A stretch of 64,000 nucleotides of DNA from an uncultured Planctomycetales bacterium (GCA_964482495.1 CAYZXS010000021.1:658-64657); one strand, 5' to 3'; positions 28,925 through 63,009 are shown, numbered from the stretch's first letter. Made by a program: numbers and translations. Notes: generated from the sequence alone by a model not told the origin.

Positions 28925-30061
28925 ATGTGGCGTAACATTCTCACTGGCGTCGCCGCCGTCGCAATCTGCGCTGGCGTGTCCGCGCAACAAACTCACAAGG
29001 TCCAGTCCAAGGAAGGTGTCAACGTCCAGTACCTGGGCACCTACAGCTTCGCTGACAACGCGTGGAGCGGCTCCGCTCGCGCCGGTTCGCGCACCCTGTA
29101 CAACTGCACCACCCCGGGCAACTACTACAGCACCGTCGGCAACAGCTCGGCCACCAACGCCGACCACCTGTGGATCGACGAAGGCAAGATCGCCGATAGC
29201 AACGCCTCCGCCATTGACCAGGTCAACGGCTTCGACTTTGCTTACTGCTCCAGAGACCTGGACCTGTCCGGCAACAGCAGCAGCATTCGGATCGTCTTCT
29301 ACGACGATTACGTCCCCTGCACCGCTCCGCCGGCCGCGACCTGCGACTACATCATCTCCGGTCTGCCGCTGTCCTCCACGGGCAACACGCAGTGCTGGGG
29401 TGTCGGCATTGACCTCGAAGGCGGCTTCGAGTGCTCGACCGACCTGGCCGACATGTTCAACACCACCGAAGCTGGCGTCGCTGATCGCTACTTCGGCTGG
29501 GCCTTCGGTGCCAACCCGGGCCTCACGAACATGAACAACACTGGTCCGATCCTCGACCTGCCCTGCGCCACCCCGGTCGTCCTGAACGGCTGCGGCTCGG
29601 GCAACGAGAACTTCTTCTACTGGGAAGACCCCGCTGCTGCCTGGTCCGGTTGCTACTGGTTCGGTGGTGTGCCGTGGGGCTCCTTCAGCATGAAGATGGT
29701 CGGTGGCGCCACGAACGCCTTCGCCTACGGCCATGCCAACAACACCCTCGGCCTCGCCAGCACCGACTTCGCTGGTGGCTCGAACGTGACCTTCACCGCC
29801 ACTGGCCAAGGCGCCGGTAGCGCCCTGTACCTGCTGGCGGCCCCGGCCTCCGGTAGCGTCATCCTGCCCGCCGGTGAGCTGGTCATCTCGACCTCCTTCT
29901 ACCCGGGCATCCCGTTCGCCATGGACTTCGCCACGGGCGCTCTGACCGCCTCCGTGCCGGCCGCCGTCGCGGTTGCCTACGTCCAAGCCGCCGAGACCAC
30001 CGGCCCGGCCACCCCCGGCGCCCTGGTCGCTCTGTCGAACGGTCTCTACTGCCTCGGTTGA
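28925..30061 (+). CDS. Secreted Ala/Gly/Ser/Thr/Asn-rich, Cys-containing protein; candidate major surface protein
   Basis: Signal peptide ending VSA-Q; AGGAG upstream; codon style unlike neighbours (many GCT/GGT/ACT, AAC); own strong terminator. Confidence 0.8.
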   Translation: MWRNILTGVAAVAICAGVSAQQTHKVQSKEGVNVQYLGTYSFADNAWSGSARAGSRTLYNCTTPGNYYSTVGNSSATNADHLWIDEGKIADSNASAIDQVNGFDFAYCSRDLDLSGNSSSIRIVFYDDYVPCTAPPAATCDYIISGLPLSSTGNTQCWGVGIDLEGGFECSTDLADMFNTTEAGVADRYFGWAFGANPGLTNMNNTGPILDLPCATPVVLNGCGSGNENFFYWEDPAAAWSGCYWFGGVPWGSFSMKMVGGATNAFAYGHANNTLGLASTDFAGGSNVTFTATGQGAGSALYLLAAPASGSVILPAGELVISTSFYPGIPFAMDFATGALTASVPAAVAVAYVQAAETTGPATPGALVALSNGLYCLG

Positions 30062-30085
30062 TCCTTCTGGATCTCTGAAGCTTTG

Positions 30086-30121
30086 CACCCCGTCGCTTCG
30101 GCGACGGGGTGTTCTCTTTTT
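30086..30121 (+). terminator. Intrinsic terminator
   Basis: CACCCCGTCGC-TTCG-GCGACGGGGTG then TTCTCTTTTT. Confidence 0.9.
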
Positions 30122-30189
30122 ATCGGCGCCGCGGCGGCCCGCTGCGGGCGACGGCGCCGGCGCATTGCGCCGACCAGACCGGCCTGGCT

Positions 30190-30195
30190 TAGGAT
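30190..30195 (+). promoter_or_regulatory. -10 element, leaderless-type
   Basis: TAGGAT 6 nt before GTG 30202. Confidence 0.55.
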
Positions 30196-30201
30196 AGGAC
30201 G

Positions 30202-45920: not shown

Positions 45921-46489
45921 GACAAGGAGGTCCTGCCGAGCCGGAAGGCCCGGAGGTTGACCTCGATGACCTTCTCGCCCTTGGCGTGGAAGAGCCGCTC
46001 GATCTGACGCTCGAGCTCCGCCGGCTCCAGGGGGAGGAAGTGCGAAGCGGCCCCGACCATGGCCATGTTGCTGGCGAGGATCGTGCCCGCCTCCTTGGCG
46101 AGGGCGTCGGCCTCCACCAGGCAGGTATGAGGCAGCTGCTCGATGCGGCTGACGATCTCCTCCTGCTCCGGGTAGTCGCTGATGTTCTCCACCCGCCCGG
46201 TGCTGGTGAGCATGGTGCCGGAGGAGGAAAGGAAGCCGAGATAGCGCAGGCCCTCCATGACCTCGAGGCTGAGGATCATGTCGGCGTCGCCGGCGGCGAT
46301 GATGTCGCTGTGGATCGGGCGGTCCGCCAGCCTCAGGTTGGCGAGCACGGCGCCGCCGCGCTGGGCCATGCCGTGGACCTCGGACTGCTTGACCGCGTAG
46401 CCGCTCTTCATGGCGGCCGAGGCGATGATCACGGCCATGGACAGCAAGCCCTGGCCGCCGACCCCCGCGAGCAGGATGTCGTACTTCAT
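45905..46489 (-). CDS. iorB: Indolepyruvate:ferredoxin oxidoreductase subunit beta
   Basis: ILLAGVGGQG, QSEVHGMAQRGGAV, NMAMVGA. Confidence 0.93.
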   Translation of the reverse strand: MKYDILLAGVGGQGLLSMAVIIASAAMKSGYAVKQSEVHGMAQRGGAVLANLRLADRPIHSDIIAAGDADMILSLEVMEGLRYLGFLSSSGTMLTSTGRVENISDYPEQEEIVSRIEQLPHTCLVEADALAKEAGTILASNMAMVGAASHFLPLEPAELERQIERLFHAKGEKVIEVNLRAFRLGRTSLSCAAS

Positions 46490-48144
46490 GCGTCGGTTCC
46501 TCCGGTGGCTCCCTTCTTCTCGTCGCGGCGGCGGCGCTTGGCGGTCTCGATGCACTCCCGGACGGCGATGACGACCGAGAGCCCGCGGTGATCGATCTCG
46601 CGGCGGAAGACCGCCGCCATGTCGTCGACCCGCTTCGGGTGGGCCTCCATCACGTGGAGGTGGTCGGGGTGGACCCCGAGCCCCAAGACCAGGGGCTCCA
46701 GCGCCGACGAGGGCAGGATGGTCGGCTGGCCCCCGGTCATGCCGACGGTGGAGTTGTCGAGGATCACGAGGACGATGTCGGCGTCGCTGGCTACTGCGTC
46801 CATCAGCGCCGTGACCCCGGAGTGGAGGAAGGTGCTGTCCCCGATCACCGCGAAGGCGGGGTGCATGCCGGCCTCCGCGGCGCCCTTGGCCATGCCGATC
46901 GAGGCGCCCATGCAGACGCAGGACTCGATGGCCGAGTAGGGCGGCAGCGCGCCGAGCGTGTAGCAGCCGATGTCCGAGGCCACCAAGGACTGCTCGAGGC
47001 CGTCGATCGCCTGGCGGATGGCGGCGTAGCTATCGGCGTGCGGGCATCCCTGGCACAGCTGCGGCGGCCGGTTTCGGACCGGCAGGTCGATGGATGAGAC
47101 CGTCTGCCGCCCAGGCAGGTCCAAGGCGCGACGGACGAAGTCCGGGTTGAGCTCGCCGTCTTGGGGCAAGTGGCCGGACAGCTTGCCCTCGATGCGGATG
47201 GTCTGCGGCAGCAGGCCGCGGAGGTAGCGCTCGAGGTAAGGGTTGCCCTCCTCCAGGACGAGCAGCTTGTCGACGTGGGCGGCGAGCTCCCGGATCCGCT
47301 CCACCGGCAGCGGGTAGGCCCCGATGTGCAGGTGCGAGGGCCGGTGGCGCAGGTCTTCCAGGTTCTCGTAGTAGTAGTTCCTGGCCAGGCCGGTGGTGAT
47401 GACGCCGAGCTCGTGCCGTTCGGGGTTGAGGACCAGCTGGTTGTTGGGAGATCCTTCGCTGTAGGAGAGCATCTCCGGCTGGCGGTCCAGCAGGTCCCGC
47501 CACTGCATCCGGGCGTAGGCGGGCAGCAGAGTCCAGCCACGGGTGTCGCGCGGCTTGCGCATCGGCTTCTCGGCCAGCGGCGGCTGGGGTCGCACCACGG
47601 CCCGGCTGTGCGCCAGCCGGGTCACCAGCCGGACCAGGACCGGGACGTGGAAGTGCTCCGACAGCTCGAAGGCCTCGCGGATCATCTCGTAGGCCTCCTG
47701 CTGGTTGGCGGGCTCCAGGCAGGGGATCCGGGCGAAGTCTGCGAAGTAGCGCGAGTCCTGCTCGTTCTGCGAGCTGTGCATGCCGGGGTCGTCGGCGACG
47801 CAGACCACGAGGCCGCCGTTGATCTGGACCACGGCGCCGTTCATGAAGGGGTCGGCGGCGACGTTCAGGCCGACGTGCTTCATGACCACCAGCGCGCGCC
47901 GGCCGACCATGGAGACGCCGAGCGCCTCCTCGAAGGCGGTCTTCTCGTTGGCGCACCAGGACGCCACCGGCTTGCCCGCCTGGTCAGAGAGCTTGATCAG
48001 ATACTCCAGGACCTCGGTCGAGGGCGTGCCCGGGTAGGCGTAGGCGGCGGTAATGCCGGCGTGCACCGCGCCCAGCGCGACGGCCTCGTCCCCGAGCAGC
48101 ACCTGCCGCAACGGTCCCCTCTTGACGGTTGTGCTTCCACTCAC
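46486..48144 (-). CDS. iorA: Indolepyruvate:ferredoxin oxidoreductase subunit alpha (short form)
   Basis: LLGDEAVA, AYPGTPSTE, NEKTAFE, MKHVGLNVAADP, RPPQLCQGCPH, SDIGCY, GDSTFLHSG. Confidence 0.95.
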   Translation of the reverse strand: MSGSTTVKRGPLRQVLLGDEAVALGAVHAGITAAYAYPGTPSTEVLEYLIKLSDQAGKPVASWCANEKTAFEEALGVSMVGRRALVVMKHVGLNVAADPFMNGAVVQINGGLVVCVADDPGMHSSQNEQDSRYFADFARIPCLEPANQQEAYEMIREAFELSEHFHVPVLVRLVTRLAHSRAVVRPQPPLAEKPMRKPRDTRGWTLLPAYARMQWRDLLDRQPEMLSYSEGSPNNQLVLNPERHELGVITTGLARNYYYENLEDLRHRPSHLHIGAYPLPVERIRELAAHVDKLLVLEEGNPYLERYLRGLLPQTIRIEGKLSGHLPQDGELNPDFVRRALDLPGRQTVSSIDLPVRNRPPQLCQGCPHADSYAAIRQAIDGLEQSLVASDIGCYTLGALPPYSAIESCVCMGASIGMAKGAAEAGMHPAFAVIGDSTFLHSGVTALMDAVASDADIVLVILDNSTVGMTGGQPTILPSSALEPLVLGLGVHPDHLHVMEAHPKRVDDMAAVFRREIDHRGLSVVIAVRECIETAKRRRRDEKKGATGGTDA

Positions 48145-53703: not shown

Positions 53704-53918
53704 CAGGGATTGCTGCATGGTGGGGAATCCGGCTCCATCCTAGGGTCCGGAGGGAGCGGAGCGCGAACCGGTAGGATTCCGGATATACTCGGGCCGAACC
53801 TGCGCTACCGCCACCACTTGGGGCCGCAGGGTGTCGAGCCAGAACCAGCCTCTGGCAGTGTTCGTCCCGCATCGTCGCGTGGAGAATGGCTCCGCGGAGC
53901 CCCCCTCCCCTGCACGCC

Positions 53919-56156
53919 ATGAACCTGTTCCCGCTGGTCGTCGTCGCCCTTGGCCTGGCTGTGGCCCTCGCCGCCACCGCTGCGCGGCGCCTGGAGATGC
54001 GCCGGCTCGAGCGCGGCCTGGAGGAGCGGAAGCAGGCCAAGCGCAAGGGCAGCCACCGCGCCCGGCTGCAGTTCCCCCACGTCGACCTGAGCCGCTGCAT
54101 CGGCTGCGGCACCTGCGTCGCCGCCTGCCCAGAGGAGGGCGTGCTCGAGATCCTGCACGGCCAAGCCCTGGTGGTGCACGGCGCCCGCTGCGTCGGCCAC
54201 GGCCTCTGCGCCGCCGAGTGCCCGGTGGGCGGCATCGCCTTGACCCTGGGCGACCTGGAGGAGCGTCGCGACATCCCTGCGCTGACGGAGAGCCTCGAAG
54301 CGGCCGGGACGCCAGGCTTGTTCTTGGCCGGGGAAGTCACCGGCTACGCCTTGGTCCGGACCGCGATCGGCCACGGCAGCGCGGTGGCCCACGAAGCCGC
54401 GCGCCGCTGCCGGGAGTCCCCCGCCCCTGCCGGCGACGACGGCTGGCTCGACCTGTGCATCGTCGGCGCCGGGCCCGCCGGCCTGGCCTGCGCCCTGGAG
54501 GCCAAGCGCCAAGGGCTGCGCTTCCGCCTGCTCGAGCAGGAGGACACGATCGGCGGCACGGTCGCCAAGTACCCGCGCAACAAGCTGGTCATGACCCAGC
54601 CGGTCGAGCTGCCGCTGCACGGCAAGCTGACCCGCACCAGCTACCGCAAGGAGGAGCTGGTCGAGCTCTGGGAGCGCGTCGCGGCGGAGCAGGAGCTGCC
54701 GCTGCGCACCGGAGAGGAGCTGCTGGGGGTCGAACCAGTCGACGGGGTCGGCTACCGGGTCCGGACCACCGCGGGCGAGCACCGGGCGCGCTGCGTCTGC
54801 CTGGCCCTCGGCCGCCGCGGAACGCCGCGCAGGCTCGGGGTGCCGGGCGAGACCCTGCCGAAGGTCGCCTACGCGCTGCAGGACGCCAATTCCTACCGCG
54901 GCCGCAAGCTGCTGGTGGTGGGCGGCGGCGACAGCGCCATCGAGGCGGCCGTCGGCCTCGCCGAGCAGCCCGGCAACGAGGTCACGCTGTCCTACCGCAA
55001 GTCGGCCTTCTTCCGCCTCAAGGCGCGCAACGAGGCGCGCATCGAGCAGGCGGCGGCCAAGGGCAGCGTCCGCGTCGAGTTCGACTCCCAGGTCCGCGGC
55101 ATCCTGCCGGACCAAGTCGTGCTCGTGGCCGGCCGCGGCGAGCAGGCTCGCGAGATCGAGCTCGCCAACGACGCCGTCTTCGTCATGGTCGGCGGCGTGC
55201 CGCCCTACCCGCTGCTCGAGGCCAGCGGCGTCTCCTTCGCGCCCGAGGACCGGAAGGTGCCGGCGCCGGTGGTCGACCAGGGCCCCGGGCTGCTGGGCGC
55301 GCTCGCGACAGGCCTGGTGCTGACCCTGGCTGCGCTGGCCTGGGTCGGCTACTTCCTCGGCTACTACCAGCTCGACCCCGCCGGCCGCGCCCCGCACGGG
55401 CTGCACGGCTTGCTGCGGCCCTCGAGGGGCGCCGGTCTGGCCTTCGGGGTCGGCTCGACGGCCCTGATCCTGCTCAACCTGAGCTACCTGCTGCGGCGCA
55501 ACCCGAGGCTGCCGCTGCGCTTCGGATCGCTCCAGGCGTGGATGACCAGCCACGTCGCCACCGGCATCCTGGCCTTCGTGCTGGCGCTGCTGCACGCGGC
55601 GCTGGACCCGCGCCAGACGGTCGGCGGCCACGCCCTGGCCTGCCTGGCGGTCCTGGTCGGCACTGGCGCCATGGGCCGGTACCTCTATTCTTTCGTGCCG
55701 CGTGCGGCGAACGGACGCGAATTGGCGCTTGATGAGGTGGAGTCCCAGCTCGCCGCCCTCTCCGCCGCCTGGGACCAGACCCACCGCGGATTCGGCGAGC
55801 AGGTGCGGTCGGAGATCGAAGAGCTGGTGCGCCATCAACGCTGGGAGCGGTCCTTCTTCGGCAGGCTCTACGCCCTGATCGCGGGGCAGCGGAGCCTGCG
55901 GCGGGCGCTCGCCCGGCTGCGGGTGGAGGGCAAGCAGCGGGACATCCCCGAGAGCCAGATCCGCAAGCTCAAGACCCTGGCGCGCCGAGCCCACCGGACC
56001 TCGCTGATGGCCTCGCACTTCGAGGACCTGCGCGGGCTGCTGGCGAGCTGGCGCTACCTGCACCGCTGGATCGCCTTGCTGATGGTGCTGCTGATCGCCA
56101 CCCACGTCTTCACGGCGCTGAAGTACGCCGACTTGCCGGGAGCGCTGGGGCGGTGA
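53919..56156 (+). CDS. Membrane-anchored 2x[4Fe-4S] ferredoxin / FAD-NADPH oxidoreductase fused to a diheme-b-like transmembrane domain
   Basis: TM anchor; CIGCGTCVAACP and CVGHGLCAAECP; VGAGPAG; VGGGDSA plus YRK; two H-x13-H TM pairs; alternative start 53886. Confidence 0.88.
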   Translation: MNLFPLVVVALGLAVALAATAARRLEMRRLERGLEERKQAKRKGSHRARLQFPHVDLSRCIGCGTCVAACPEEGVLEILHGQALVVHGARCVGHGLCAAECPVGGIALTLGDLEERRDIPALTESLEAAGTPGLFLAGEVTGYALVRTAIGHGSAVAHEAARRCRESPAPAGDDGWLDLCIVGAGPAGLACALEAKRQGLRFRLLEQEDTIGGTVAKYPRNKLVMTQPVELPLHGKLTRTSYRKEELVELWERVAAEQELPLRTGEELLGVEPVDGVGYRVRTTAGEHRARCVCLALGRRGTPRRLGVPGETLPKVAYALQDANSYRGRKLLVVGGGDSAIEAAVGLAEQPGNEVTLSYRKSAFFRLKARNEARIEQAAAKGSVRVEFDSQVRGILPDQVVLVAGRGEQAREIELANDAVFVMVGGVPPYPLLEASGVSFAPEDRKVPAPVVDQGPGLLGALATGLVLTLAALAWVGYFLGYYQLDPAGRAPHGLHGLLRPSRGAGLAFGVGSTALILLNLSYLLRRNPRLPLRFGSLQAWMTSHVATGILAFVLALLHAALDPRQTVGGHALACLAVLVGTGAMGRYLYSFVPRAANGRELALDEVESQLAALSAAWDQTHRGFGEQVRSEIEELVRHQRWERSFFGRLYALIAGQRSLRRALARLRVEGKQRDIPESQIRKLKTLARRAHRTSLMASHFEDLRGLLASWRYLHRWIALLMVLLIATHVFTALKYADLPGALGR

Positions 56157-58495
56157 GGCTGCGCGATCCGCGCCTGTGGCTGAGCCTGGCGAGCCTCGCG
56201 GCGGTGGCGCTGCTGGCCTTCATCGACCTGCGCCGGAACACCTCTCCGGGCCCGGTCCACCCGACCCACGCCCAGCTCAAGGAGCTGCGCAGCCGCCGGG
56301 GTTGCGCGGAGTGCCACGGCGACGAGGCGGGCGGCATGGCCGGCGCCTGCCTGCGCTGCCACGAGGCGATCGCCCGCCAGTTGGAGCAGGGCAGCGGCCT
56401 GCACGGGAGCCTGGTGCAGCCGCCGGTGGAGGACTGCGGCCGCTGCCACCTCGAGCACCTCGGCGACGCCTTCCCGCTGATCTCGGACGACAGCTTCGAG
56501 CGGGCCGGCGCCGACCGGCTCGGCTTCGACCACGCCGTGGCCGAGTTCCGGCTCGTCGGCGCCCACGTCGAGCTCGCCTGCGACCGCTGCCACCCGGACG
56601 CCCAGCTCGGGCTGATGCCGGAGGGGAGGTCGCGCTTCCTCGACCAGGAGCAGGCCTGCGAGAGCTGCCACGAGGACCCGCACCGCGGCGCGATGCGGCG
56701 CGCTTGCGAGGACTGCCACGGACAGGAGCGGCCCTTCGAGCAGGTAGCGGTGTTCGAGCACGATGAGCGCTTCCCCTTGGTCGGCGGCCACGCCGGCCAG
56801 GCCTGCAAGGCCTGCCACCCGCAGGACAGCCTGCAGTCGGTCGAGGCCTTGGACCGGGGCGTGCCGGAGGAGTCCTGGCGCCGGTGTCTGGACTGCCACG
56901 CGTCGCCGCACGCTCCCCGCTTCCTGCGCGCCGCGGCGCGAGAGCAGGGCCAATCGGAGGCCGAGAGCTGCGCCGGCTGCCACCCGGTCGAGGGTCCCGC
57001 CTTCGCCGGCGCCGAGCTTCCCCGCGAGCGGCACGGCCTGAGCGGCTTCCCCTTGTCGCCGCCGCACGCCGAGCAGGACTGCCGGGCCTGCCACCAGCCA
57101 GCGGCCGAGGGCGTGGGCTGGGGCGCCCGCTTCCCGGGGCGCGCAGCGCAGGACTGCGGCGCCTGCCATCAGGACCCGCACCGCGGCCAGTTCGCCGGCG
57201 GCCCCTTCGGCGGCGGATGCCTGGACTGCCACCTGGAGACGACCTGGGCCCCGCCCGACTTCGATGCCGAACGCCACGAGCGGACCGGCTTCGCGCTGAC
57301 CGGCGCCCACCTCGAGGCGGAGTGCCGCGGCTGCCACCCCGACCCGCCGCCAGACGCGCCGCGGCGCTTCCGCGACACCGAGGGCCGCTGCGAGGACTGC
57401 CATGACGACGCACACCGCGGCGCCTTCCAGGCACCGACCGCCGCCCTGCCTCCTGCTGAGCAGGGCGAGTGCGGCCGCTGCCACGGCACCGAGCGCTTCG
57501 CGCCGGCGCTGGAGGGCCGCTTCGAGCACGGTCGCTGGACCGACTTCGGCCTGGAGGGGGCCCACCTGCGGGCGGACTGCCGCAGCTGCCACCCGGCGCT
57601 CCCGGAGCCGGATGCCGCCGGCCGCAGCTTCGCCTTCGTCGCCGACACCGTCGACGGCGACCCGCGCGCCTGCTCCAGCTGCCACGAGGACGTGCACGCC
57701 GGGGCCTTCGACGCCGAAGGCCTGCCGGCCCTCTTGGACGGCCGCGCCGGCTGCGATCGCTGCCACGACAGCGAGGTCTTCCGCGAGCTCCGCCCGGGCG
57801 CCTTCGATCACGGCGCCTGGACCGACTTCGCGCTGGCCGGGGCCCACGCCCAGAGCGGCTGCGAAGCCTGCCATGGCCGCGACCCGGCGCCCGCGGCCGG
57901 TACCCGGAGCCTTGGCCGCGTCGCCGACCGTTTCTCCGGCCCGGCGGACCGCTGCGTCAGCTGCCACCCGGACCCCCACCTCGGCCTCTTCGACCGCGCC
58001 GGCCAGCCCGCCGAGGTCGACGGCCGCCGAGGATGCGCCCGCTGCCACCAGCCGGTGTCCTTCCGGTCGCTGACCCTGGCCGGCTTCGACCACGGCCGGT
58101 GGACCGGCTACGCGCTCGCCGGCAAGCACGCGCAGGCCTCCTGCAACGGCTGCCACGCTCCCTTGGCGCAGGCCGACGCCCTCGGCCGCCGTCACGGCTT
58201 CGCCCGCGGCCAGGCCTGCGACGACTGCCACGCCGACCCGCACGTCGGCCAGTTCGCCGCCGCCGGCCGCACCGACTGCGCCCGCTGCCACGACGAGCAG
58301 GACTTCCGCCAGCCGCGCTTCGACCACCAGACCGACTCCCGCTTCCCGCTCGACGCCAATCACGCCGCGCTCGACTGCGCCCGCTGCCACAAGCCCTGGC
58401 CCCTGGCCGGCGGCGGCGAAGCGGTGCGCTACAAGCCGCTCGGCACCCGCTGCCAGGACTGCCACGGCTTCGGCTTCGAGGACCGCTCCCGATGA
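56153..58495 (+). CDS. Multiheme cytochrome c, 26 CxxCH motifs, N-terminal membrane anchor/signal
   Basis: 26 CxxCH counted by hand; GTGA overlap with upstream gene; SPGP..H after the hydrophobic N-terminus. Confidence 0.95.
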   Translation: MRLRDPRLWLSLASLAAVALLAFIDLRRNTSPGPVHPTHAQLKELRSRRGCAECHGDEAGGMAGACLRCHEAIARQLEQGSGLHGSLVQPPVEDCGRCHLEHLGDAFPLISDDSFERAGADRLGFDHAVAEFRLVGAHVELACDRCHPDAQLGLMPEGRSRFLDQEQACESCHEDPHRGAMRRACEDCHGQERPFEQVAVFEHDERFPLVGGHAGQACKACHPQDSLQSVEALDRGVPEESWRRCLDCHASPHAPRFLRAAAREQGQSEAESCAGCHPVEGPAFAGAELPRERHGLSGFPLSPPHAEQDCRACHQPAAEGVGWGARFPGRAAQDCGACHQDPHRGQFAGGPFGGGCLDCHLETTWAPPDFDAERHERTGFALTGAHLEAECRGCHPDPPPDAPRRFRDTEGRCEDCHDDAHRGAFQAPTAALPPAEQGECGRCHGTERFAPALEGRFEHGRWTDFGLEGAHLRADCRSCHPALPEPDAAGRSFAFVADTVDGDPRACSSCHEDVHAGAFDAEGLPALLDGRAGCDRCHDSEVFRELRPGAFDHGAWTDFALAGAHAQSGCEACHGRDPAPAAGTRSLGRVADRFSGPADRCVSCHPDPHLGLFDRAGQPAEVDGRRGCARCHQPVSFRSLTLAGFDHGRWTGYALAGKHAQASCNGCHAPLAQADALGRRHGFARGQACDDCHADPHVGQFAAAGRTDCARCHDEQDFRQPRFDHQTDSRFPLDANHAALDCARCHKPWPLAGGGEAVRYKPLGTRCQDCHGFGFEDRSR

Positions 58496-60165
58496 GGCTC
58501 CTTCCCCTCCCCCTCCCCGCTCTGCTCGCGGCGCTGCTCGGCGTCGCGGCCCTCTCGCCCGTCGCGGCCCAGGACCCCGGCATGCGCCGGGTCGAGGCCC
58601 GCGTGACCGCCTCCAGCCCCGGCCTCGCCACCCTCGACCGCGGCAACGACGCCGGCCTGCAGCCCGGCGACCGGGTCCGGCTGCACCCGCTCGGCGCCGC
58701 GGTCCTCGAGGGCCGGGTCGAGCAGGTCGGCGCCCGCGACGCCACGGTGCGCCTGAACGACCCGGCAGCGGCGGTCGACATCGGCGCCCGGGCCGAGGCC
58801 TTCGTGCCCGCCGACCGCATCCAGGAACCCGGCGGCGAGGCTCCCGGCCAGCCCCCGGCGCACGCGCCCTGGTCGCGGCCGCCGGACGAGTGGACCCAGG
58901 ACATGCCGCTGCTGGCGAAGTCCCAGGGCCGCAAGCCCGAGCAGCGCCCGGTCGAGTGGAGCGGCCGCTTCTTCAGCAGCGTCGACCACACCACCGACCG
59001 CGGCAGCGACGACGACCGGAGCTACCTCTACGCCCGCAGCGGCGCCGACCTGGACGCCCGCAACCCCTTCGGCCGCGGCGGCGAGCTGCGCATCGACTTC
59101 GAGGTCAACCACCGCGCCGACTCCAACCCCGGCTACCCCGACGAGAGCGAGACCGGGCTGCGCCTGGACCGGCTCTCCTGGTCGGTGGGCGGCGACCGCC
59201 ACGCCCCGCGGCGCTGGGAGTTCGGCCGCTTCCTGCACCGCGAGTTCCCGGAGTTCGGGGTCGCCGACGGCGCCGATTTCAGCGCCCGGCTGTCGCCGGC
59301 CAACACCTTCGGCGCCAGCTTCGGCTACCTGCCCGAGCTGGACTCCGACTACGCCACCGGCAAGGACCTGCAGACCTCCCTCTACTGGTCCCACACCAGC
59401 GGCGAGCGCCGCGAGCTGCGCGCCGGCGCCGGCTTCCAGAAGACCTGGCACCGCGGCAGCGCCGACCGCGACCTGTTCCTGGCCAAGCTGAGCTGGTCGC
59501 CGCCGGCCGGCCTGAACTTCTACTCGACCGCCTGGGTCGACCTCTACGGCAGCGAGGACACCGCCAAGTCCTCCGGCGCCGAGCTGACCCAGCTCTTCAG
59601 CAGCCTCGGCTGGCGGGCGGAGGGCGGCGACGGGGTGCGGCTGGGCTACTCGCGGATCCGCTTCCCGCAGCTGCTGCGGCTGCAGATCAGCCAGATCACG
59701 CTGGCGCAGCTGTCGGACAACCAGACCGACCGGATCGACCTCTCGGCCTGGAAACGGCTCAACGCCGATCTCCGCCTGTCGGGGCGGGTCGACTCCTGGA
59801 GCGACGAGGACGACAGCGGCGGCGGCGGACAGCTGCGGATGGACTGGCGCGGGCCGCTGTTCGCGAACGGCAACCTCGGCGCCGCTTTGTTCACCAACCA
59901 GGGCCAGTTCAGCTCGGTCACGGGGCTGCGCCTCGACGCCGACTGGGCCACCGGCCTGGGCTCCTGGCGGATCTCCTGGGAGAGCGCTCAATTCAGCCAG
60001 GAGGACTTCGTCGGCGATCAGGAGGAGCTGCTCCAGCACGCCCTCGAGCTCTCCTGGGATCTCTACGGCGGCACCGGCTGGTCCTGCTCGAGCTACCTCG
60101 AACAGCGCCTCGGCGACGAGATCGACTCCACGACCCTCGGCTTCTACCTCCAGCACCGGTTCTAG
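58492..60165 (+). CDS. Outer-membrane beta-barrel with N-terminal periplasmic beta-domain
   Basis: ATG 58492 overlaps upstream stop; signal peptide; amphipathic Trp/Tyr/Gly strands; C-terminal LGFYLQHRF BAM-type signal. Confidence 0.82.
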   Translation: MRLLPLPLPALLAALLGVAALSPVAAQDPGMRRVEARVTASSPGLATLDRGNDAGLQPGDRVRLHPLGAAVLEGRVEQVGARDATVRLNDPAAAVDIGARAEAFVPADRIQEPGGEAPGQPPAHAPWSRPPDEWTQDMPLLAKSQGRKPEQRPVEWSGRFFSSVDHTTDRGSDDDRSYLYARSGADLDARNPFGRGGELRIDFEVNHRADSNPGYPDESETGLRLDRLSWSVGGDRHAPRRWEFGRFLHREFPEFGVADGADFSARLSPANTFGASFGYLPELDSDYATGKDLQTSLYWSHTSGERRELRAGAGFQKTWHRGSADRDLFLAKLSWSPPAGLNFYSTAWVDLYGSEDTAKSSGAELTQLFSSLGWRAEGGDGVRLGYSRIRFPQLLRLQISQITLAQLSDNQTDRIDLSAWKRLNADLRLSGRVDSWSDEDDSGGGGQLRMDWRGPLFANGNLGAALFTNQGQFSSVTGLRLDADWATGLGSWRISWESAQFSQEDFVGDQEELLQHALELSWDLYGGTGWSCSSYLEQRLGDEIDSTTLGFYLQHRF

Positions 60166-60167
60166 AC

Positions 60168-61541
60168 ATGGCAACCCCGCTCCGCATCCGCCGCCTGGCG
60201 CCGCTGGCCCGCCCGCTCCTGACCCTGGGCCTGGCGCTGCTCACGACCCTCGCCTGCGTCCGCGGCCGTGAAGACGTCCCGCCGCAAGGCTGGTGGGACG
60301 GCCTCGGCCCGGTGATCCCGCACGACAAGTTCCCGGCCGACTGCTCGCTTTGCCACACCGGCCAGGGCTGGCAGGAGATCCGCGACGACTTCGCCTTCGA
60401 CCACGCCGCCGAGACCGGCTACCCGCTCGAAGGCGCCCACGCCGCGGCCCAGTGCCTGCGCTGTCACAACGACCGCGGCCCGGCGGCCGACTTCGCCGCC
60501 CGCGGCTGCGGCGGCTGCCACGAGGACGTGCACCTCGGCCAGCTCGGCACCAATTGCGAGGACTGCCACGAGCAGCCTGACTGGCGGCCGCGGGGACGGA
60601 TCTCCGAGCACGCCAAGACCCGCTTCCCGCTGATGGGAGCCCACGCCGCGACCGCCTGCCGCGCCTGCCACCCTGCGGCCGAGCTCGGGGTCTTCGTGCC
60701 CACCGACACCGAGTGCCTGAGCTGCCACCGCGACGACCTGGCGCGCGCCAAGGACCCGGACCACCTGGCGCAGGGCTGGACTGACGGCTGCGACCGCTGC
60801 CACATCTCGACGAGCTGGGGCGGCGCCGCCTTCAACCACGGCTGGTGGCCGCTGACCGGCGCCCACGGCTCCGCCAGCTGCAAGTCCTGCCACAGCGGCG
60901 GGGTCTACGCCGGCACCGACCCGGCCTGCTTCTCCTGCCACTCGGCCGAGTACACCGGCGCCGCGGATCCGGACCACGTCGCCCTCAACCTGCCGACCGC
61001 CTGCCGCCAGTGCCACACCACCCGCGGCTGGAAGCCGGCCGACATGGACCACTCGGTGCTCAGCGGCAGCTGCGTGAGCTGCCACCTGGCTGACTATCAG
61101 GCCACCACCGACCCGGACCACCAGGCGCTGGGCATCCCGACCACCTGCGAGGACTGCCACAGCACCCGCAACTGGCGCGACGCCAACTTCGACCACGCTG
61201 GGATCGCCAGCGGCTGCGTCAATTGCCACCTCGACGACTACCAGGCGACCACCAACCCGAACCACATCGCGGCCGGCTTCCCCACGACCTGCGAGGACTG
61301 CCACGACACGGTGCGCTGGAGGAACGGCACCTTCGACCACGACTTCCCGATCACCAGCGGCAAGCACAAGGGCTTCAACTGCAACCGCTGCCACCTGAAC
61401 AGCAGCAACTACGCCGACTTCTCCTGCACCCACTGCCACGCCCACCGCAAGTCGGAGATGGACGACGAGCACGACGGCGTCAGCGGCTACGTCTGGTCGA
61501 GCCCGGCCTGTTACACCTGCCACCCGGACGGACGCGAGTGA
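60168..61541 (+). CDS. Multiheme cytochrome c, 17 CxxCH motifs, possible lipoprotein
   Basis: Start ATG 60168; Arg-rich n-region, hydrophobic h-region, TLAC; 17 CxxCH counted by hand. Confidence 0.93.
   Translation: MATPLRIRRLAPLARPLLTLGLALLTTLACVRGREDVPPQGWWDGLGPVIPHDKFPADCSLCHTGQGWQEIRDDFAFDHAAETGYPLEGAHAAAQCLRCHNDRGPAADFAARGCGGCHEDVHLGQLGTNCEDCHEQPDWRPRGRISEHAKTRFPLMGAHAATACRACHPAAELGVFVPTDTECLSCHRDDLARAKDPDHLAQGWTDGCDRCHISTSWGGAAFNHGWWPLTGAHGSASCKSCHSGGVYAGTDPACFSCHSAEYTGAADPDHVALNLPTACRQCHTTRGWKPADMDHSVLSGSCVSCHLADYQATTDPDHQALGIPTTCEDCHSTRNWRDANFDHAGIASGCVNCHLDDYQATTNPNHIAAGFPTTCEDCHDTVRWRNGTFDHDFPITSGKHKGFNCNRCHLNSSNYADFSCTHCHAHRKSEMDDEHDGVSGYVWSSPACYTCHPDGRE
60927..61340 (+). repeat. 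Three tandem 144-nt (48-aa) diheme repeats in the 17-heme cytochrome
   Basis: Units start at 60927, 61071 and 61215: CxxCH..Y....P.H.....PT.CxxCH....W.....DH. Confidence 0.85.
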
Positions 61542-62218
61542 GCGGCTGGCGCCGGGCCTACCGCGAAGCCCCCGAGCTCTTCGACGCCTTCGCCCGCGCC
61601 GAGGACCCGGACGGCGTGGTGGCGGCGGCGCTGCGGCGCCGGGCCGGCTTCGTGGACCGGCGGGTGCTGGAGCTGGGCTGCGGCACCGGCCGCTTCGGGC
61701 CGGCCTTGGCGGACGGCGCCGGGTCGTGGATCGGCCTGGATCCCGAGCCGGCGATGGTCGGCCTGGCGCGGGGCGCTTGGCGGGGACGGCCGGGCATGGA
61801 GCTGGTGCGCGGCCGAGGCGAGCGGCTGCCCTTCCCGGACCAGAGCTTCGACGCCGCGGTGGCCACCTGGGTGCTCGGCGACTTGCCGGTCGGACGGCGG
61901 GCGGCGGTGATCCTGAGTTGCGACCGGGTGCTGCGGCCTGACGGGGCCCTCTGGCTGCTCGAGAACGCCGGCGGCTGCGCCTTCGACGCCCTGGAAGGAG
62001 GCCGCGGACCGGGCTGGGCGGCGGCCGCGGGCTTCGAGCCGGTCGAGGAGGTCGAGACCGAGCTCCGCTTCCCAGACGAGGCCAGCGCGGCGCGCTGCCT
62101 CGGCTACCTGCTCGGCGACGGCGCCCGCGAGGCCTTGTCGCTGGCCCCTCGGCGCCGCTTCAGCCACCGGGTGCTCATCCTGCGGCGGCCGCGGGGCCGC
62201 TGGTCGAGCCCGTCTTGA
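61538..62218 (+). CDS. Class I SAM-dependent methyltransferase
   Basis: GTG 61538 overlaps cytochrome stop; VLELGCGTG, GLDP, LPFPDQSFD, RVLRPDG. Confidence 0.88.
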   Translation: MSGWRRAYREAPELFDAFARAEDPDGVVAAALRRRAGFVDRRVLELGCGTGRFGPALADGAGSWIGLDPEPAMVGLARGAWRGRPGMELVRGRGERLPFPDQSFDAAVATWVLGDLPVGRRAAVILSCDRVLRPDGALWLLENAGGCAFDALEGGRGPGWAAAAGFEPVEEVETELRFPDEASAARCLGYLLGDGAREALSLAPRRRFSHRVLILRRPRGRWSSPS

Positions 62219-62954
62219 GCTCCCCGCCCTCGAACCAGAAGAACTCCACGGTGCTCGAGCGCAGCATGTCGTCCCGGCGGTAGACCGGAAACCCGAGGCC
62301 CGGCGCCCGCACCTGCTCGACCGCCCGGCGGTATTCCGTCGAGTCCACCGCGAGGTCGTGACCGCGGACCGCGCCGCCGCGGCCGACCGGCAGGAAGCGG
62401 TACAGGTGCCAAGCGTGCAGCTCCAGGCCCTCCGCCCGCAGCCGCTGGAGCAGCCGGGCGACGGCGCCGAGGGCGTCGAGGTTGCGCCGGGTCACCACGG
62501 TGCCGATGGTCAGCTCCTTGCCGCTGGCGGCCAGCTCGCCGATTCCCGCCATCAGGCGATGGAAGTGGCCGCCGGGGGCGGACCGGAGCTGGTCGTGCAG
62601 GACGGCGTCGGCGGCCTCGAGCGGCAGCAGGTAGCGGTCGACCCAGTCGAAGGCGGCGAAGCCCGGCGGCGGCGCCAGGCCGTTGCTGCCGACCTGCACC
62701 AGGAAGCCCAGCTCGCGGGCGCGGCGGCCGAGCCGCTCGAGGTCGTGCGGCCACAGGAAGGGCTCGCCGCCGCCGAGCACGACGTTGCGGTAACCGGCCC
62801 GACGCAGGCGCTCCAGCAGCTCGGCGGCGCCCTCGAAGCTGGCGGTGTCGAAGCCCGTCTCGCTGGCGCAGAAGGCGCAGCCCATGTCGCAATCGGGCAG
62901 CAGGAAGACCGAGGCGATGCGCTTCGCGGAGCCGGGCGGGCGGAGGGCGGGCAT
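62175..62954 (-). CDS. Radical SAM protein, single domain
   Basis: CDMGCAFC (CxxxCxxC), GGGEPFL, SNG, TVVTRRN, FLPVGRG; no SPASM cysteines. Confidence 0.9.
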   Translation of the reverse strand: MPALRPPGSAKRIASVFLLPDCDMGCAFCASETGFDTASFEGAAELLERLRRAGYRNVVLGGGEPFLWPHDLERLGRRARELGFLVQVGSNGLAPPPGFAAFDWVDRYLLPLEAADAVLHDQLRSAPGGHFHRLMAGIGELAASGKELTIGTVVTRRNLDALGAVARLLQRLRAEGLELHAWHLYRFLPVGRGGAVRGHDLAVDSTEYRRAVEQVRAPGLGFPVYRRDDMLRSSTVEFFWFEGGELKTGSTSGPAAAAG

Positions 62955-62969
62955 GGATCCGGGTACAGG

Positions 62970-63009
62970 AATAAGCAAAGGGCGGGGAGGATGCCAGCCC
63001 TCCCCGCCC
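62970..63009 (-). terminator. Intrinsic terminator of the 63028-63945 gene
   Basis: 11-bp stem GGGCGGGGAGG/CCTCCCCGCCC, 8-nt loop, then TTTGCTTATT on the minus strand. Confidence 0.8.

What the first reader, a model, noticed from the sequence alone, without database searches (positions are those of the whole stretch)
55290..56156. NOX/ferric-reductase-like diheme-b membrane domain fused to a thioredoxin-reductase-fold flavoprotein
Seen: about five hydrophobic helices at the C-terminus. His codons at 55551 and 55593 (SHVATGILAFVLALLHAA) and at 56061 and 56103 (LHRWIALLMVLLIATHV) form two pairs, each 14 residues apart. The N-terminal anchor is followed by RRLEMRR...RKQAKRK, which places the catalytic part in the cytoplasm by the positive-inside rule. 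Known: NOX, ferric reductases and MsrQ bind two hemes b with His pairs 13-14 residues apart, but NOX uses an FNR-type flavodomain. Inference: this is a convergent NOX-like design built from a TrxR/YpdA-fold module plus a ferredoxin.
Basis: partly seen in the sequence, partly recalled or inferred. Interest (0 to 1): 0.75.

Follow-up and report, generated by a model that had tools for sequence, protein, structure and literature searches.

The report
Flavoprotein fused to dihaem membrane wire
This marine Planctomycetota gene fuses an NAD(P)H-type flavoprotein and an iron-sulfur ferredoxin to a membrane domain that probably holds two b-haems, and it always sits in front of multihaem cytochrome and putative porin genes. 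It therefore looks like the undescribed inner-membrane entry point of a wire that carries electrons from the cytoplasm to the cell surface.

Summary
Gene 53886..56156 (+, 756 aa) has an N-terminal membrane anchor, a two-cluster ferredoxin, a TrxR/YpdA-fold flavoprotein without redox cysteines, and five C-terminal membrane helices. His556/His570 and His726/His740 (each H-x13-H) lie at the stated codons. They are invariant in 121 full-length homologues and in stand-alone relatives only 25-30% identical.

The C-terminal domain is a dihaem-b-type module by motif. It is not a demonstrable NOX/ferric-reductase member: Pfam matches to Ferric_reduct, DUF4405 and Ni_hydr_CYTB all fall below threshold, and Foldseek finds no NOX, STEAP or MsrQ. 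By features it matches the ~300-aa "conserved inner membrane protein" of PCC3/PCC4 porin-cytochrome clusters (He et al. 2017).

The next three genes are a 26-haem cytochrome, a putative porin and a 17-haem cytochrome. A multihaem cytochrome follows the fusion in 66 of 66 related loci with enough flank. In other lineages the flavoprotein and the membrane protein are adjacent separate genes.

Best reading: a NOX-like but independently assembled NAD(P)H-to-multihaem-cytochrome transmembrane module for extracellular electron transfer. Nothing is shown experimentally. I found no paper describing the flavoprotein link.

The parts
53886..56156 (+). Whole fusion gene, 756 aa (possible true start at Met12, 53919)
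   Evidence: ORF list. GC3 is 0.95. 120 full-length homologues of 57-100% identity.
53925..53984 (+). N-terminal membrane anchor, residues 14-33, followed by RRLEMRRLERGLEERKQAKRK
   Evidence: Hydropathy maximum 2.46; 6 K/R after the helix and 1 before it. Helix 15-52 in the model, pLDDT 86-94 over residues 11-30. The anchor is also present in the split-gene homologues.
54072..54251 (+). Ferredoxin domain, about residues 63-122. Motif 1 is C71-x2-C74-x2-C77-x3-C81-P. Motif 2 is C102-x2-H105-x2-C108-x3-C112-P, with His in place of the second Cys.
   Evidence: Pfam Fer4_10 4.9e-10 and others. All seven Cys are 100% conserved and His105 99%. The His-containing motif is also found in the split homologues.
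54444..55259 (+). TrxR/YpdA-fold two-Rossmann flavoprotein, about residues 187-458. Motifs GAGPAG and GGGDSA. No CxxC.
   Evidence: Pyr_redox_3 1.3e-41. TIGR04018 YpdA scores 152 bits against a cut-off of 340. Foldseek hits 7apr at 7e-18, plus TrxR-type FNRs 3ab1, 6gar and 3lzw. YpdA Cys14 aligns to Ala198 and the TrxR CxxC is absent.
55281..56156 (+). C-terminal five-helix putative dihaem-b domain, residues 466-756. This is the stretch named in the finding.
   Evidence: Five hydrophobic helices. Sub-threshold Pfam matches to Ferric_reduct, DUF4405 and Ni_hydr_CYTB. A profile of the domain finds 4030 representative clusters at E<=1e-3, mostly stand-alone proteins of about 290-300 aa.
55551..55595 (+). 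His556 and His570 on the third helix of the domain, preceded by W552 (W-x3-H-x13-H)
   Evidence: CAC codons. 100% conserved.
55689..56048 (+). Cytoplasmic helical insert between the fourth and fifth helices, residues 602-721. It begins with the invariant motif P605..N609-G610..E612.
   Evidence: Long helices 579-632, 636-652, 657-684 and 689-747 in the model. 22 K/R in this loop. Its only Foldseek resemblances are four-helix-bundle sensor domains, E about 0.04.
56061..56105 (+). His726 and His740 on the last helix, preceded by W722 (W-x3-H-x13-H)
   Evidence: CAC codons. 100% conserved. The segment aligns to cytochrome b6 helix B (its two His, residues 86 and 100) at E 0.004.
56153..58495 (+). 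Multihaem cytochrome c, 780 aa, 26 CxxCH, with a hydrophobic N-terminal anchor or signal. Its GTG start overlaps the fusion gene's TGA stop.
   Evidence: Cytochrome_C7 3.2e-32 with 11 matched stretches. Motif count and start/stop overlap. An equivalent gene follows the fusion in 66 of 66 loci with at least 3 kb downstream.
58492..60165 (+). Putative outer-membrane porin, 557 aa. Signal peptide, no haem motifs, no Pfam match, ends ...YLQHRF. Its ATG overlaps the preceding stop.
   Evidence: A gene of about 550 aa without Pfam match holds the same position in L001-L004. A haem-free gap of about 1.8 kb is seen in the 80 loci. The barrel fold is inferred, not modelled.
60168..61541 (+). Second multihaem cytochrome c, 457 aa, 17 CxxCH. 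The N-terminus has a lipoprotein-like signal (..LLTTLAC).
   Evidence: A second multihaem cytochrome (7-46 CxxCH) follows in most of the related loci that extend far enough.
61538..62218 (+). SAM-dependent methyltransferase, 226 aa, with a weak UbiE/COQ5-type match. Its start overlaps the preceding stop. Whether it belongs to the system is uncertain.
   Evidence: Present in the close relatives L001-L003 but not in L004.

Best explanation
The protein is the inner-membrane entry module of a porin-cytochrome conduit for extracellular electron transfer.

Proposed path: cytoplasmic NAD(P)H reduces FAD in the TrxR-fold domain. Electrons then pass one at a time through the two iron-sulfur clusters of the fused ferredoxin. 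They cross the membrane through two bis-His b-haems, one on the cytoplasmic side (His556 + His726) and one on the periplasmic side (His570 + His740). They reach the membrane-anchored 26-haem cytochrome encoded next, then go through the putative porin to the 17-haem outer cytochrome and an external acceptor.

The design works like NOX or STEAP (pyridine nucleotide, flavin, transmembrane b-haem) but is built from unrelated parts. It could bypass the quinone pool.

Outward electron flow is favoured by both the redox span and the membrane potential. The likely role is therefore an electron sink for redox balance rather than proton pumping.

Shown here: the domain composition, ligand conservation, topology signals, conserved gene order, and fused versus split gene forms. 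Inferred: haem, FAD and Fe-S occupancy, the donor, the direction of flow, the partner and independence from quinone.
For: 1. All cofactor-binding motifs are present and conserved. These are seven ferredoxin Cys plus His105, the two Rossmann motifs and four invariant His.
2. The two His pairs lie at matching depths on two helices of the same orientation. Both start on the cytoplasmic side and each is preceded by Trp.
3. The two intervening helices carry invariant or nearly invariant small residues about 14 positions apart: G517/N531 and G580-581/G594. As I recall, the haem-packing glycines of cytochrome b are spaced the same way.
4. Weak but convergent sequence similarity to four b-haem families, namely Ferric_reduct, DUF4405, Ni_hydr_CYTB and cytochrome b6 helix B. 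DUF4405 has been purified and shown to bind haem b (PMC11334425).
5. No TrxR CxxC and no YpdA Cys14. The closest structures include TrxR-type ferredoxin-NADP reductases. The flavoprotein is therefore an electron-transfer enzyme, not a disulfide reductase.
6. Context in 80 genomes, mostly Planctomycetota and including the isolate Rohdeia mirabilis Pla163. 76 of 80 loci carry the fusion. In 66 of 66 loci with enough flank, a cytochrome with 15-29 CxxCH starts directly after it. A haem-free gene and a second multihaem cytochrome follow in nearly all loci that extend far enough.
7. Fused versus split gene forms. All six stand-alone relatives examined, one of them from an Elusimicrobiota MAG, have an adjacent separate gene of about 445-468 aa. 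It encodes the same anchor + His-motif ferredoxin + flavoprotein. An anchored multihaem cytochrome lies downstream.
8. The four window genes overlap or nearly abut, which suggests one operon.
Against: - Nothing is shown experimentally. No haem, FAD or Fe-S content and no activity has been measured for any member.
- The fold search did not link the membrane domain to any solved b-haem protein.
- I could not obtain model coordinates, so the facing of the His pairs and the cluster-to-haem distances are untested.
- Dihaem b proteins of this general kind are usually quinone-reactive, and He et al. proposed that role for the stand-alone relatives.
- Outward electrogenic flow from NAD(P)H would consume rather than build membrane potential, so the physiological benefit is an inference.
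- A distant relative in Acidobacteriota-type clusters lacks the flavoprotein, so the membrane protein can work with other donors.
- No transcript evidence was found.
Confidence: 0.6

Rival explanations
1. Quinone-coupled version. The b-haem domain is a quinone/quinol-reactive cytochrome b, as proposed for PCC3/PCC4 inner-membrane proteins. The flavoprotein-ferredoxin makes the whole protein an NAD(P)H:quinone oxidoreductase, or a quinol:cytochrome c link. Electrons would then reach the multihaem cytochrome through the quinone pool, not straight through the protein.
For: He et al. 2017 proposed quinone activity for the stand-alone relatives by analogy with cytochrome b and the hydrogenase cytochrome b. 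There are weak matches to Ni_hydr_CYTB and cytochrome b6. Conserved periplasm-side His507 and His582 and the (S/T)GxxG helix could form a quinone site. A UbiE-like methyltransferase gene abuts the cluster in the window and its close relatives.
Against: A cytoplasmic flavoprotein plus ferredoxin, fused to or next to the membrane protein, already gives a complete donor side, so no quinone is needed. The periplasmic cytochrome is membrane-anchored and appears translationally coupled. No quinone-site motif could be tested. The methyltransferase is not conserved in L004.
Confidence: 0.2
2. Reverse operation. The conduit takes electrons up from an external donor such as Fe(II), a reduced mineral or a partner cell, and the fusion protein delivers them to NAD(P)+ or ferredoxin for biosynthesis.
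For: PCC3/PCC4 clusters were first noticed in Fe(II)-oxidising bacteria. Multihaem conduits are reversible in principle. TrxR-type ferredoxin-NADP reductases work in both directions (general knowledge).
Against: Inward electron movement runs against the membrane potential, and from Fe(II)-type donors it is also uphill to NAD(P)+. Nothing in the protein suggests coupling to an energy input (established bioenergetics plus inference). The window and its close relatives carry heterotroph-type neighbours: sulfatase, 3-keto-disaccharide hydrolase, 2-oxoacid:ferredoxin oxidoreductase and an ADP-forming acyl-CoA synthetase-like gene.
Confidence: 0.1
3. A true NOX/MsrQ-like enzyme. The membrane domain would reduce O2, free Fe(III) or a periplasmic repair enzyme, and the neighbouring cytochromes would be functionally unrelated.
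For: A weak Ferric_reduct match. The overall logic of pyridine nucleotide, flavin and two b-haems is the same.
Against: Below the Pfam threshold. No structural match to NOX, STEAP or MsrQ. No FNR-type domain. A multihaem cytochrome directly follows in 66 of 66 loci and also in the split forms.
Confidence: 0.05
4. The C-terminal helices are only a membrane anchor or scaffold with no haem. The flavoprotein-ferredoxin would act on a soluble cytoplasmic substrate.
For: No direct evidence of haem. Foldseek finds only generic helical bundles.
Against: Four His, two Trp and several Gly inside membrane helices are invariant down to 25% identity. That is not expected of a passive anchor. The flavoprotein already has its own N-terminal anchor, also in the split forms.
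Confidence: 0.04

Closest known systems
Conserved inner-membrane protein (IMP) of PCC3/PCC4 porin-cytochrome gene clusters (He et al. 2017, Front Microbiol, PMC5566968). A bioinformatic proposal only.
   Same: About 300 aa and five membrane helices. W-x3-H-x13-H on helices 3 and 5. A small-residue (S/T)GxxG motif on helix 4. Encoded beside a many-haem periplasmic cytochrome, a porin and an extracellular cytochrome. Proposed to hold two b-haems and carry electrons across the inner membrane.
   Different: Here the IMP is fused to, or in other phyla adjacent to, a membrane-anchored ferredoxin + TrxR-fold flavoprotein. That paper does not mention such a protein in its main text or in the supplements held. 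The paper assumed a quinone partner and Fe(II) oxidation. I did not compare sequences directly with a reference PCC3 IMP.
NADPH oxidases / ferric reductases (NOX, FRE) and STEAP metalloreductases (ferric reductase domain, Pfam PF01794)
   Same: A cytoplasmic NAD(P)H-oxidising flavodomain on the same polypeptide as a transmembrane b-haem wire whose His ligands sit on the third and fifth helices. As in STEAP, the dehydrogenase is N-terminal (STEAP detail from memory).
   Different: The flavodomain has a TrxR/YpdA fold, not an FNR fold. A 2x[4Fe-4S]-type ferredoxin lies between flavin and haem. Both His pairs are x13, whereas NOX has x13 and x12 as I recall. There are five helices plus a separate N-terminal anchor and a 120-residue cytoplasmic insert. 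The Pfam match is below threshold and there is no Foldseek match. The acceptor is most likely a multihaem cytochrome c.
DUF4405 (PF14358) and MsrQ/PepSY-like flavinylation-associated cytochromes b (Huang et al. 2024, mSystems, PMC11334425)
   Same: Bacterial membrane proteins with four conserved central His, proposed to carry electrons across the cytoplasmic membrane. DUF4405 was purified and shown to bind haem b. DUF4405 is the Pfam family that most relatives of this domain touch: 13 of 15, and one of them scores above the cut-off for the whole protein.
   Different: The matches cover only the last helix (profile positions 36-64 of 66). The window domain scores 24.5 bits against a cut-off of 26.7. 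Those proteins are linked to ApbE-flavinylated extracytosolic partners, not to a cytoplasmic NAD(P)H flavoprotein and multihaem cytochromes.
TrxR-type ferredoxin-NADP+ reductases (e.g. PDB 3ab1, 3lzw, 6gar) and YpdA/Bdr (PDB 7a7b, 7apr)
   Same: A two-Rossmann TrxR fold that lacks the CxxC disulfide. These are the best sequence and structure matches.
   Different: Membrane-anchored and fused to its own ferredoxin and to a membrane cytochrome. YpdA's Cys14 is Ala here. Far below the NCBIfam YpdA cut-off.
Tmc/Hmc-type transmembrane complexes of sulfate reducers and the Geobacter CbcL/ImcH/Cbc inner-membrane cytochromes (from general knowledge, not tested here)
   Same: They link periplasmic multihaem cytochromes c to the cytoplasmic side or to the quinone pool through a membrane cytochrome b and Fe-S proteins.
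   Different: Different protein families. None uses an NAD(P)H flavoprotein directly. The Geobacter proteins are quinol oxidases.

Membership tests
NOX / ferric reductase domain (Pfam PF01794 Ferric_reduct) | Significant match to the family profile above its curated threshold | tested here: not met
   24.4 bits (whole protein) and 25.5 bits (domain alone) against a cut-off of 28. Only profile positions 2-54 of 121 are matched. 7 of 15 relatives match at E<0.01.
NOX / ferric reductase domain (Pfam PF01794 Ferric_reduct) | Two His pairs on the third and fifth membrane helices that ligate two b-haems | tested here: met
   H556/H570 and H726/H740 lie on the third and fifth helices of the domain and are invariant. 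Both spacings are x13. NOX has x13/x12, recalled from memory. Haem binding itself is untested.
NOX / ferric reductase domain (Pfam PF01794 Ferric_reduct) | Fold similarity to solved NOX, STEAP or MsrQ-type structures | tested here: not met
   Foldseek of the pLDDT 90.8 model against the PDB gave no hit with E<0.01. None of these proteins is in the top 50. The best b-haem protein is cytochrome b561 4o7g at E 0.87. Foldseek is weak on all-helical membrane bundles, so this is not strong negative evidence.
NOX / ferric reductase domain (Pfam PF01794 Ferric_reduct) | FNR-type FAD/NAD-binding dehydrogenase domain C-terminal to the membrane domain (NOX/FRE) | tested here: not met
   The only flavodomain is Pyr_redox_3 / TrxR-fold, and it is N-terminal.
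PCC3/PCC4 inner-membrane protein (He et al. 2017) | About 300 aa with five membrane helices | tested here: met
   The domain spans residues 466-756 with five helices. Most relatives found by the profile are stand-alone proteins of 260-320 aa.
PCC3/PCC4 inner-membrane protein (He et al. 2017) | Two W-x3-H-x13-H motifs on helices 3 and 5, and SGxxG on helix 4 | tested here: met
   W552-x3-H556-x13-H570 and W722-x3-H726-x13-H740. Helix 4 reads T593-G594-A-M-G597, with Thr in place of Ser and both Gly invariant. 131 of 147 representatives have at least two W-x3-H-x13-H motifs.
PCC3/PCC4 inner-membrane protein (He et al. 2017) | Encoded with a periplasmic multihaem cytochrome, a porin and (in PCC3) an extracellular multihaem cytochrome | tested here: met
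   The window has a 26-haem cytochrome, a 557-aa putative porin and a 17-haem cytochrome. A multihaem cytochrome follows in 66 of 66 related loci. The porin fold is inferred only.
PCC3/PCC4 inner-membrane protein (He et al. 2017) | Direct sequence homology to a reference PCC3 or PCC4 IMP (e.g. from Sideroxydans lithotrophicus ES-1) | not tested
The attempt through the distant relative P0197 led to Acidobacteriota proteins instead.
DUF4405 (Pfam PF14358) | Match above the curated threshold | tested here: inconclusive
   The window domain scores 24.5 bits against a cut-off of 26.7, over the last helix only. 13 of 15 relatives match at E<0.01. The stand-alone relative P0222 scores 27.9 bits, above the whole-protein cut-off.
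Thioredoxin reductase (TIGR01292) | Redox-active CxxC in the NADPH domain | tested here: not met
   There is no conserved CxxC. C303 is 2% conserved. The region that aligns to the TrxR CATCDG reads ALQDANSY. 72 bits against a cut-off of 343.
YpdA/Bdr bacillithiol disulfide reductase (TIGR04018) | Conserved active-site Cys14 in GGGPCG, and a score above the family threshold | tested here: not met
   It aligns as GAGPAG, so Ala198 stands in place of the Cys. 152.5 bits against a cut-off of 339.9. The fold match itself is strong: 7apr E 7e-18.
TrxR-type ferredoxin-NADP+ reductase | TrxR fold without CxxC, intact FAD and NAD(P)H Rossmann motifs, and a ferredoxin partner | tested here: met
   GAGPAG and the invariant GGGDSA. 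Matches to 3ab1, 5ygq, 3lzw and 6gar. The ferredoxin is fused in cis. The C-terminal flavin-stacking extension of these enzymes was not examined.
2x[4Fe-4S] bacterial ferredoxin | Two CxxCxxCxxxCP motifs | tested here: inconclusive
   The first motif is canonical. The second is CxxHxxCxxxCP with His105 99% conserved. This fits either a His-ligated [4Fe-4S] or a [3Fe-4S] cluster. Sequence cannot decide between them.

The most novel reading that the evidence does not exclude
This is a new class of quinone-independent transmembrane NAD(P)H:multihaem-cytochrome-c oxidoreductase. One polypeptide (two in some phyla) would wire cytoplasmic pyridine nucleotide through FAD, two Fe-S clusters and two b-haems directly into a porin-cytochrome conduit. 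Planctomycetota and other little-studied phyla would thus have a complete, self-contained cytoplasm-to-surface electron path that evolved independently of NOX/STEAP and of the quinol-oxidising entry points known from Shewanella and Geobacter.
Probability: 0.4. Interest if true: 0.8.

Novelty: new variant of a known kind. Interest (0 to 1): 0.68.

Why it matters
How electrons leave the cytoplasmic membrane is the least understood step of extracellular electron transfer outside Shewanella and Geobacter. In those two models the known entry proteins all take electrons from quinol.

This locus suggests another solution: a pyridine-nucleotide flavoprotein and ferredoxin joined to a two-haem membrane wire. 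It is conserved in hundreds of species-level genomes, mostly Planctomycetota, and also occurs as split genes elsewhere (one example from an Elusimicrobiota MAG).

If confirmed, three things follow:
- A large family now labelled only "NAD(P)-binding domain-containing protein" or "hypothetical protein" would get a function.
- The PCC3-type inner-membrane protein would get a donor.
- There would be a second, independently assembled example of the NOX design principle.

A cultured strain, Rohdeia mirabilis Pla163, carries the whole cluster, so the idea can be tested directly.

Tried and rejected
- **Foldseek on the full-length model.** Only TrxR/YpdA/FNR hits appeared, so it said nothing about the membrane domain. 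I therefore modelled the domain separately.
- **Foldseek on the domain model against the PDB.** No significant hit, only generic helical bundles (chemoreceptor sensor domains, BAR domains, ABC exporters).
- **Profile of the domain against PDB sequences.** Only a 26-residue match to cytochrome b6 helix B, E 0.004. Suggestive, but not proof of family.
- **Protein search of annotated plasmids for a named relative.** No match.
- **Last large protein search, on the distant stand-alone relative P0197.** I hoped to reach named PCC3 proteins of iron oxidisers. It returned only hypothetical proteins, the few with a source organism name being Acidobacteriota (Candidatus Sulfotelmatobacter / Acidoferrum), some mislabelled as TRAP transporter small subunits.
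- **RNA evidence.** Metatranscriptomes from the same study hold none of the gene's words, so there is no expression evidence.
- **Literature (papers read).** No paper found describes a ferredoxin/TrxR-fold flavoprotein fused to or adjacent to this membrane protein. The Effluviviacota, deep-peat and Deferribacter papers turned out to be irrelevant.
- **Disulfide reductase idea (TrxR or YpdA/Bdr).** Rejected because the catalytic cysteines are absent.
- **Facing of the His pairs.** I could not measure whether they face each other in the model, because model coordinates are not exposed by the tools.


Full report
**1. What is at the coordinates**

The finding's stretch (55290-56156) is the C-terminal 290 residues of one gene, 53886..56156 on the + strand, 756 aa. 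It has the codon bias of a real gene in this 72% G+C window: GC3 is 0.95.

Hydropathy and two AlphaFold2 models give an N-terminal anchor (14-33) and five C-terminal membrane helices at about 469-489, 515-538, 549-571, 580-601 and 722-746. The full-length model has pLDDT 87.8 and pTM 0.76; the domain-only model has pLDDT 90.8. The last two helices are separated by a ~120-residue helical insert rich in Lys/Arg.

**2. Is it more than chance**

In the single sequence, two H-x13-H pairs in the domain are only mildly unusual (P about 0.04 by shuffling). Conservation is decisive.
- In 121 full-length homologues (57-100% identity) all four His are invariant. So are the seven ferredoxin Cys and both Rossmann motifs.
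- The four His remain invariant when stand-alone relatives of 25-30% identity are added. So do W552 and W722, each four residues before the first His of its pair, and G594/G597.
- The two His-free helices between and beside the ligand helices carry invariant or nearly invariant small residues about 14 positions apart: G517/N531 and G580-581/G594. These sit at the same depths as the His ligands.

This is the pattern expected for two haems stacked across the membrane inside a four-helix core. His556 + His726 would hold the haem on the cytoplasmic side and His570 + His740 the one on the periplasmic side. That assignment is inference; no haem has been measured.

**3. The soluble part**

Pfam and NCBIfam find a dicluster ferredoxin (residues ~63-122) and a Pyr_redox_3 / TrxR-YpdA-fold flavoprotein (~187-458). 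The best solved relatives by sequence and by fold are YpdA/Bdr, thioredoxin reductases and the TrxR-type ferredoxin-NADP reductases.
- The TrxR CxxC is absent.
- YpdA's Cys14 aligns to Ala198.
- Scores are far below the curated cut-offs of both families.

So the fold call is right, but the enzyme is not a disulfide reductase. It most resembles a ferredoxin-NAD(P) reductase with its ferredoxin attached in cis.

The strand after the second Rossmann motif ends in S-Y-R with no acidic residue, as in NADPH-using YpdA. This hints weakly at NADPH.

The second ferredoxin motif reads C-x2-H-x2-C-x3-C-P, with the His 99% conserved. It is also present in the split homologues.

**4. What family is the membrane domain**

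It has no Pfam family above threshold. Relatives touch several b-haem families:
- DUF4405: 13 of 15 relatives match.
- Ferric_reduct: 7 of 15.
- Ni_hydr_CYTB: 5 of 15.

All are near or below the cut-offs and cover only one helix or helix pair. A profile of the domain searched against all PDB sequences finds only helix B of cytochrome b6, the helix with its two haem-ligand His, at E 0.004. Foldseek of the confident domain model finds nothing significant and no NOX, STEAP or MsrQ.

The domain is therefore a dihaem-b-type module by motif. Membership of the NOX/ferric-reductase family specifically was tested and not met.

An exhaustive profile search shows it belongs to a large unannotated family: 4030 representative clusters at E<=1e-3 and 418 at E<=1e-30. 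Most members are stand-alone proteins of about 290-300 aa.

That description matches the "conserved inner membrane protein" that He et al. (2017, PMC5566968) noted in their PCC3 and PCC4 porin-cytochrome clusters. Those proteins have about 300 aa, five helices, SGxxG on helix 4 and W-x3-H-x13-H on helices 3 and 5. The authors likened them to the ferric reductase domain and to cytochrome b and proposed that they bind two b-haems. I matched features and context, not sequences, because no reference sequence was available.

A related Pfam family, DUF4405, has since been purified and shown to bind haem b (PMC11334425).

**5.

Genes immediately downstream:

| Coordinates | Product | Key features |
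|---|---|---|
| 56153-58495 | multihaem cytochrome c, 780 aa | 26 CxxCH; hydrophobic N-terminal anchor; start overlaps the fusion's stop |
| 58492-60165 | putative outer-membrane porin, 557 aa | signal peptide; no haem motif; no Pfam match; C-terminal Phe |
| 60168-61541 | multihaem cytochrome c, 457 aa | 17 CxxCH; lipoprotein-like signal |

The starts and stops overlap or nearly abut. The order is the same in homologues of 73% and 57% identity.

A scan of one genome per species found 365 genomes with a relative. The best 80 are mostly Planctomycetota MAGs (a few carry other or no phylum labels), plus the isolate Rohdeia mirabilis Pla163.
- In 76 of 80 loci the ferredoxin motif, a Rossmann motif and both His motifs lie in one reading frame. 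The other four are cut by a contig end or sit in a much shorter open frame.
- In 66 of 66 loci with at least 3 kb downstream, a cytochrome with 15-29 CxxCH starts directly after the fusion gene. Its first haem motif is usually about 146 nt past the stop.
- A haem-free gap of roughly 1.8 kb and a second multihaem cytochrome (7-46 CxxCH) follow in nearly all loci that extend far enough.

**6. Fused and split forms**

I looked up six stand-alone close relatives of the membrane domain: P0222, P0223, P0224 (from an Elusimicrobiota MAG), P0229, P0245 and P0300. Each has an adjacent separate gene of about 445-468 aa (cut by the contig end in one case). In one locus it is divergently transcribed. That gene encodes the same N-terminal anchor, the same His-containing ferredoxin motif and the same flavoprotein. 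An anchored multihaem cytochrome lies downstream.

Fusion in one lineage and adjacency in others is strong comparative evidence that the flavoprotein-ferredoxin and the membrane protein work together.

A more distant relative (P0197, whose few named homologues are Acidobacteriota) sits in a cluster of two cytochromes, a ~584-aa gene without Pfam match, a 285-aa gene and the membrane protein. That cluster has no flavoprotein. The membrane module can therefore serve other donors.

**7. Mechanism**

The best-supported chain is: NAD(P)H, then FAD, then two Fe-S clusters, then the cytoplasmic-side b-haem, then the periplasmic-side b-haem, then the anchored 26-haem cytochrome, then the porin-cytochrome complex, then an external acceptor.

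On direction: an electron moving outward moves with the membrane potential and down the redox span from NAD(P)H. The reverse would be uphill on both counts, and nothing in the protein suggests coupling to an energy input. This rests on established bioenergetics, not on a test.

The consequence is a dissipative electron sink, useful for regenerating NAD(P)+. The window and its close relatives carry a 2-oxoacid:ferredoxin oxidoreductase and an ADP-forming acyl-CoA synthetase-like gene a few kb upstream. That fits such a metabolism, but it may be mere synteny between close relatives.

The main open point is whether the b-haems also react with quinone, as He et al. assumed. That is the chief rival, and I cannot exclude it.

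**8. Novelty and verdict**

The kind of thing is known: a porin-cytochrome conduit with a putative dihaem-b inner-membrane protein. The NOX analogy is apt at the level of design.

What appears new is the physical and genomic coupling of that membrane protein to a ferredoxin plus TrxR-fold NAD(P)H flavoprotein. This implies a possibly quinone-independent entry to the conduit. Database names for these proteins are generic: "NAD(P)-binding domain-containing protein", "thioredoxin reductase/ferredoxin", "hypothetical protein". Six literature searches and nine papers read found no description of it.

I classify it as a new variant of a known kind, of fairly high interest and entirely untested experimentally. 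The window comes from a marine metagenome. No transcript evidence was found.

Noticed in passing
window 54189-54224 (residues 102-113): The second ferredoxin motif is C-x2-H-x2-C-x3-C-P. His105 replaces the usual second Cys and is 99% conserved in 121 homologues. It is also present in the split-gene flavoproteins of other lineages. This suggests a His-ligated [4Fe-4S] or a [3Fe-4S] cluster at one end of the Fe-S relay.
   Followed up: partly
window 55689-56048 (residues 602-721): A ~120-residue cytoplasmic helical insert lies between the fourth and fifth helices of the membrane domain. It starts with an invariant P..NG.E motif and is conserved in stand-alone relatives. Its only structural resemblances are four-helix-bundle sensor domains (McpS, TorS; E about 0.04-1). 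It may be the docking surface for the ferredoxin or flavoprotein.
   Followed up: partly
window 55404, 55629 (His507, His582): Two further His on the predicted periplasmic side are 98% and 93% conserved: His507 in the first periplasmic loop and His582 at the start of the fourth helix, within GGHA. Their role is unknown. They could form a quinone site or contact the cytochrome.
   Followed up: no
window 56153-56260 and the homologous cytochromes in L085, L088, L090, L092, L093: The cytochrome that follows the membrane protein keeps a conserved N-terminus in several lineages: a hydrophobic helix followed by an S-P-G motif. This suggests an uncleaved membrane anchor that holds it next to the b-haem protein.
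   Followed up: partly
L005-L084: Two cluster subtypes exist downstream of the fusion. One has a 26- or 29-haem cytochrome, a gap, then a 15-28-haem cytochrome. The other has a 23-haem cytochrome, a gap, a 7-haem protein and then a ~950-aa 11-haem protein. Several MAGs carry two or three paralogous loci, for example Bpl_4 (L015, L032, L079) and CBDFNI01 (L040, L050).
   Followed up: partly
P0200 (838 aa); L023: P0200 joins a partial flavoprotein, the membrane domain and cytochrome c domains in one frame. In L023 the membrane domain lies in an open frame of only 365 aa with no ferredoxin or Rossmann motif. Either may be a real variant or an assembly/frameshift artefact.
   Followed up: no
window 61538-62218 (+) and 62175-62978 (-): A SAM methyltransferase with a weak UbiE/COQ5-type match starts inside the stop of the second cytochrome gene. 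It converges on, and overlaps, a radical SAM gene. Both are also present in the 73%-identical relatives but not in L004.
   Followed up: partly
window 43683-48144 (-): A 2-oxoacid:ferredoxin oxidoreductase (POR_N/TPP subunit and POR gamma-like subunit) sits next to an ADP-forming acyl-CoA synthetase-like gene (ATP-grasp_5 / CoA_binding_2 / Succ_CoA_lig). Together they form a fermentative, ferredoxin-reducing and ATP-yielding module a few kb upstream of the electron-export cluster.
   Followed up: partly
window 28001-32211: A dip in G+C (0.647 against about 0.71) with strongly negative GC skew. Two ORFs here (28925-30061, 378 aa; 30202-32211, 669 aa) have no Pfam match at E<=1e-4. The window has no tRNA genes.
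   Followed up: partly
L087 and P0348-P0466: A large family of 314-aa stand-alone relatives of the membrane protein lacks the flavoprotein; P0197 is the 312-aa member looked up. The few members with a source organism name are Acidobacteriota (Candidatus Sulfotelmatobacter / Acidoferrum). The one locus looked up (L087) sits in a cluster of two cytochromes plus a ~584-aa gene without Pfam match. Several members are mislabelled as TRAP transporter small permease subunits.
   Followed up: partly
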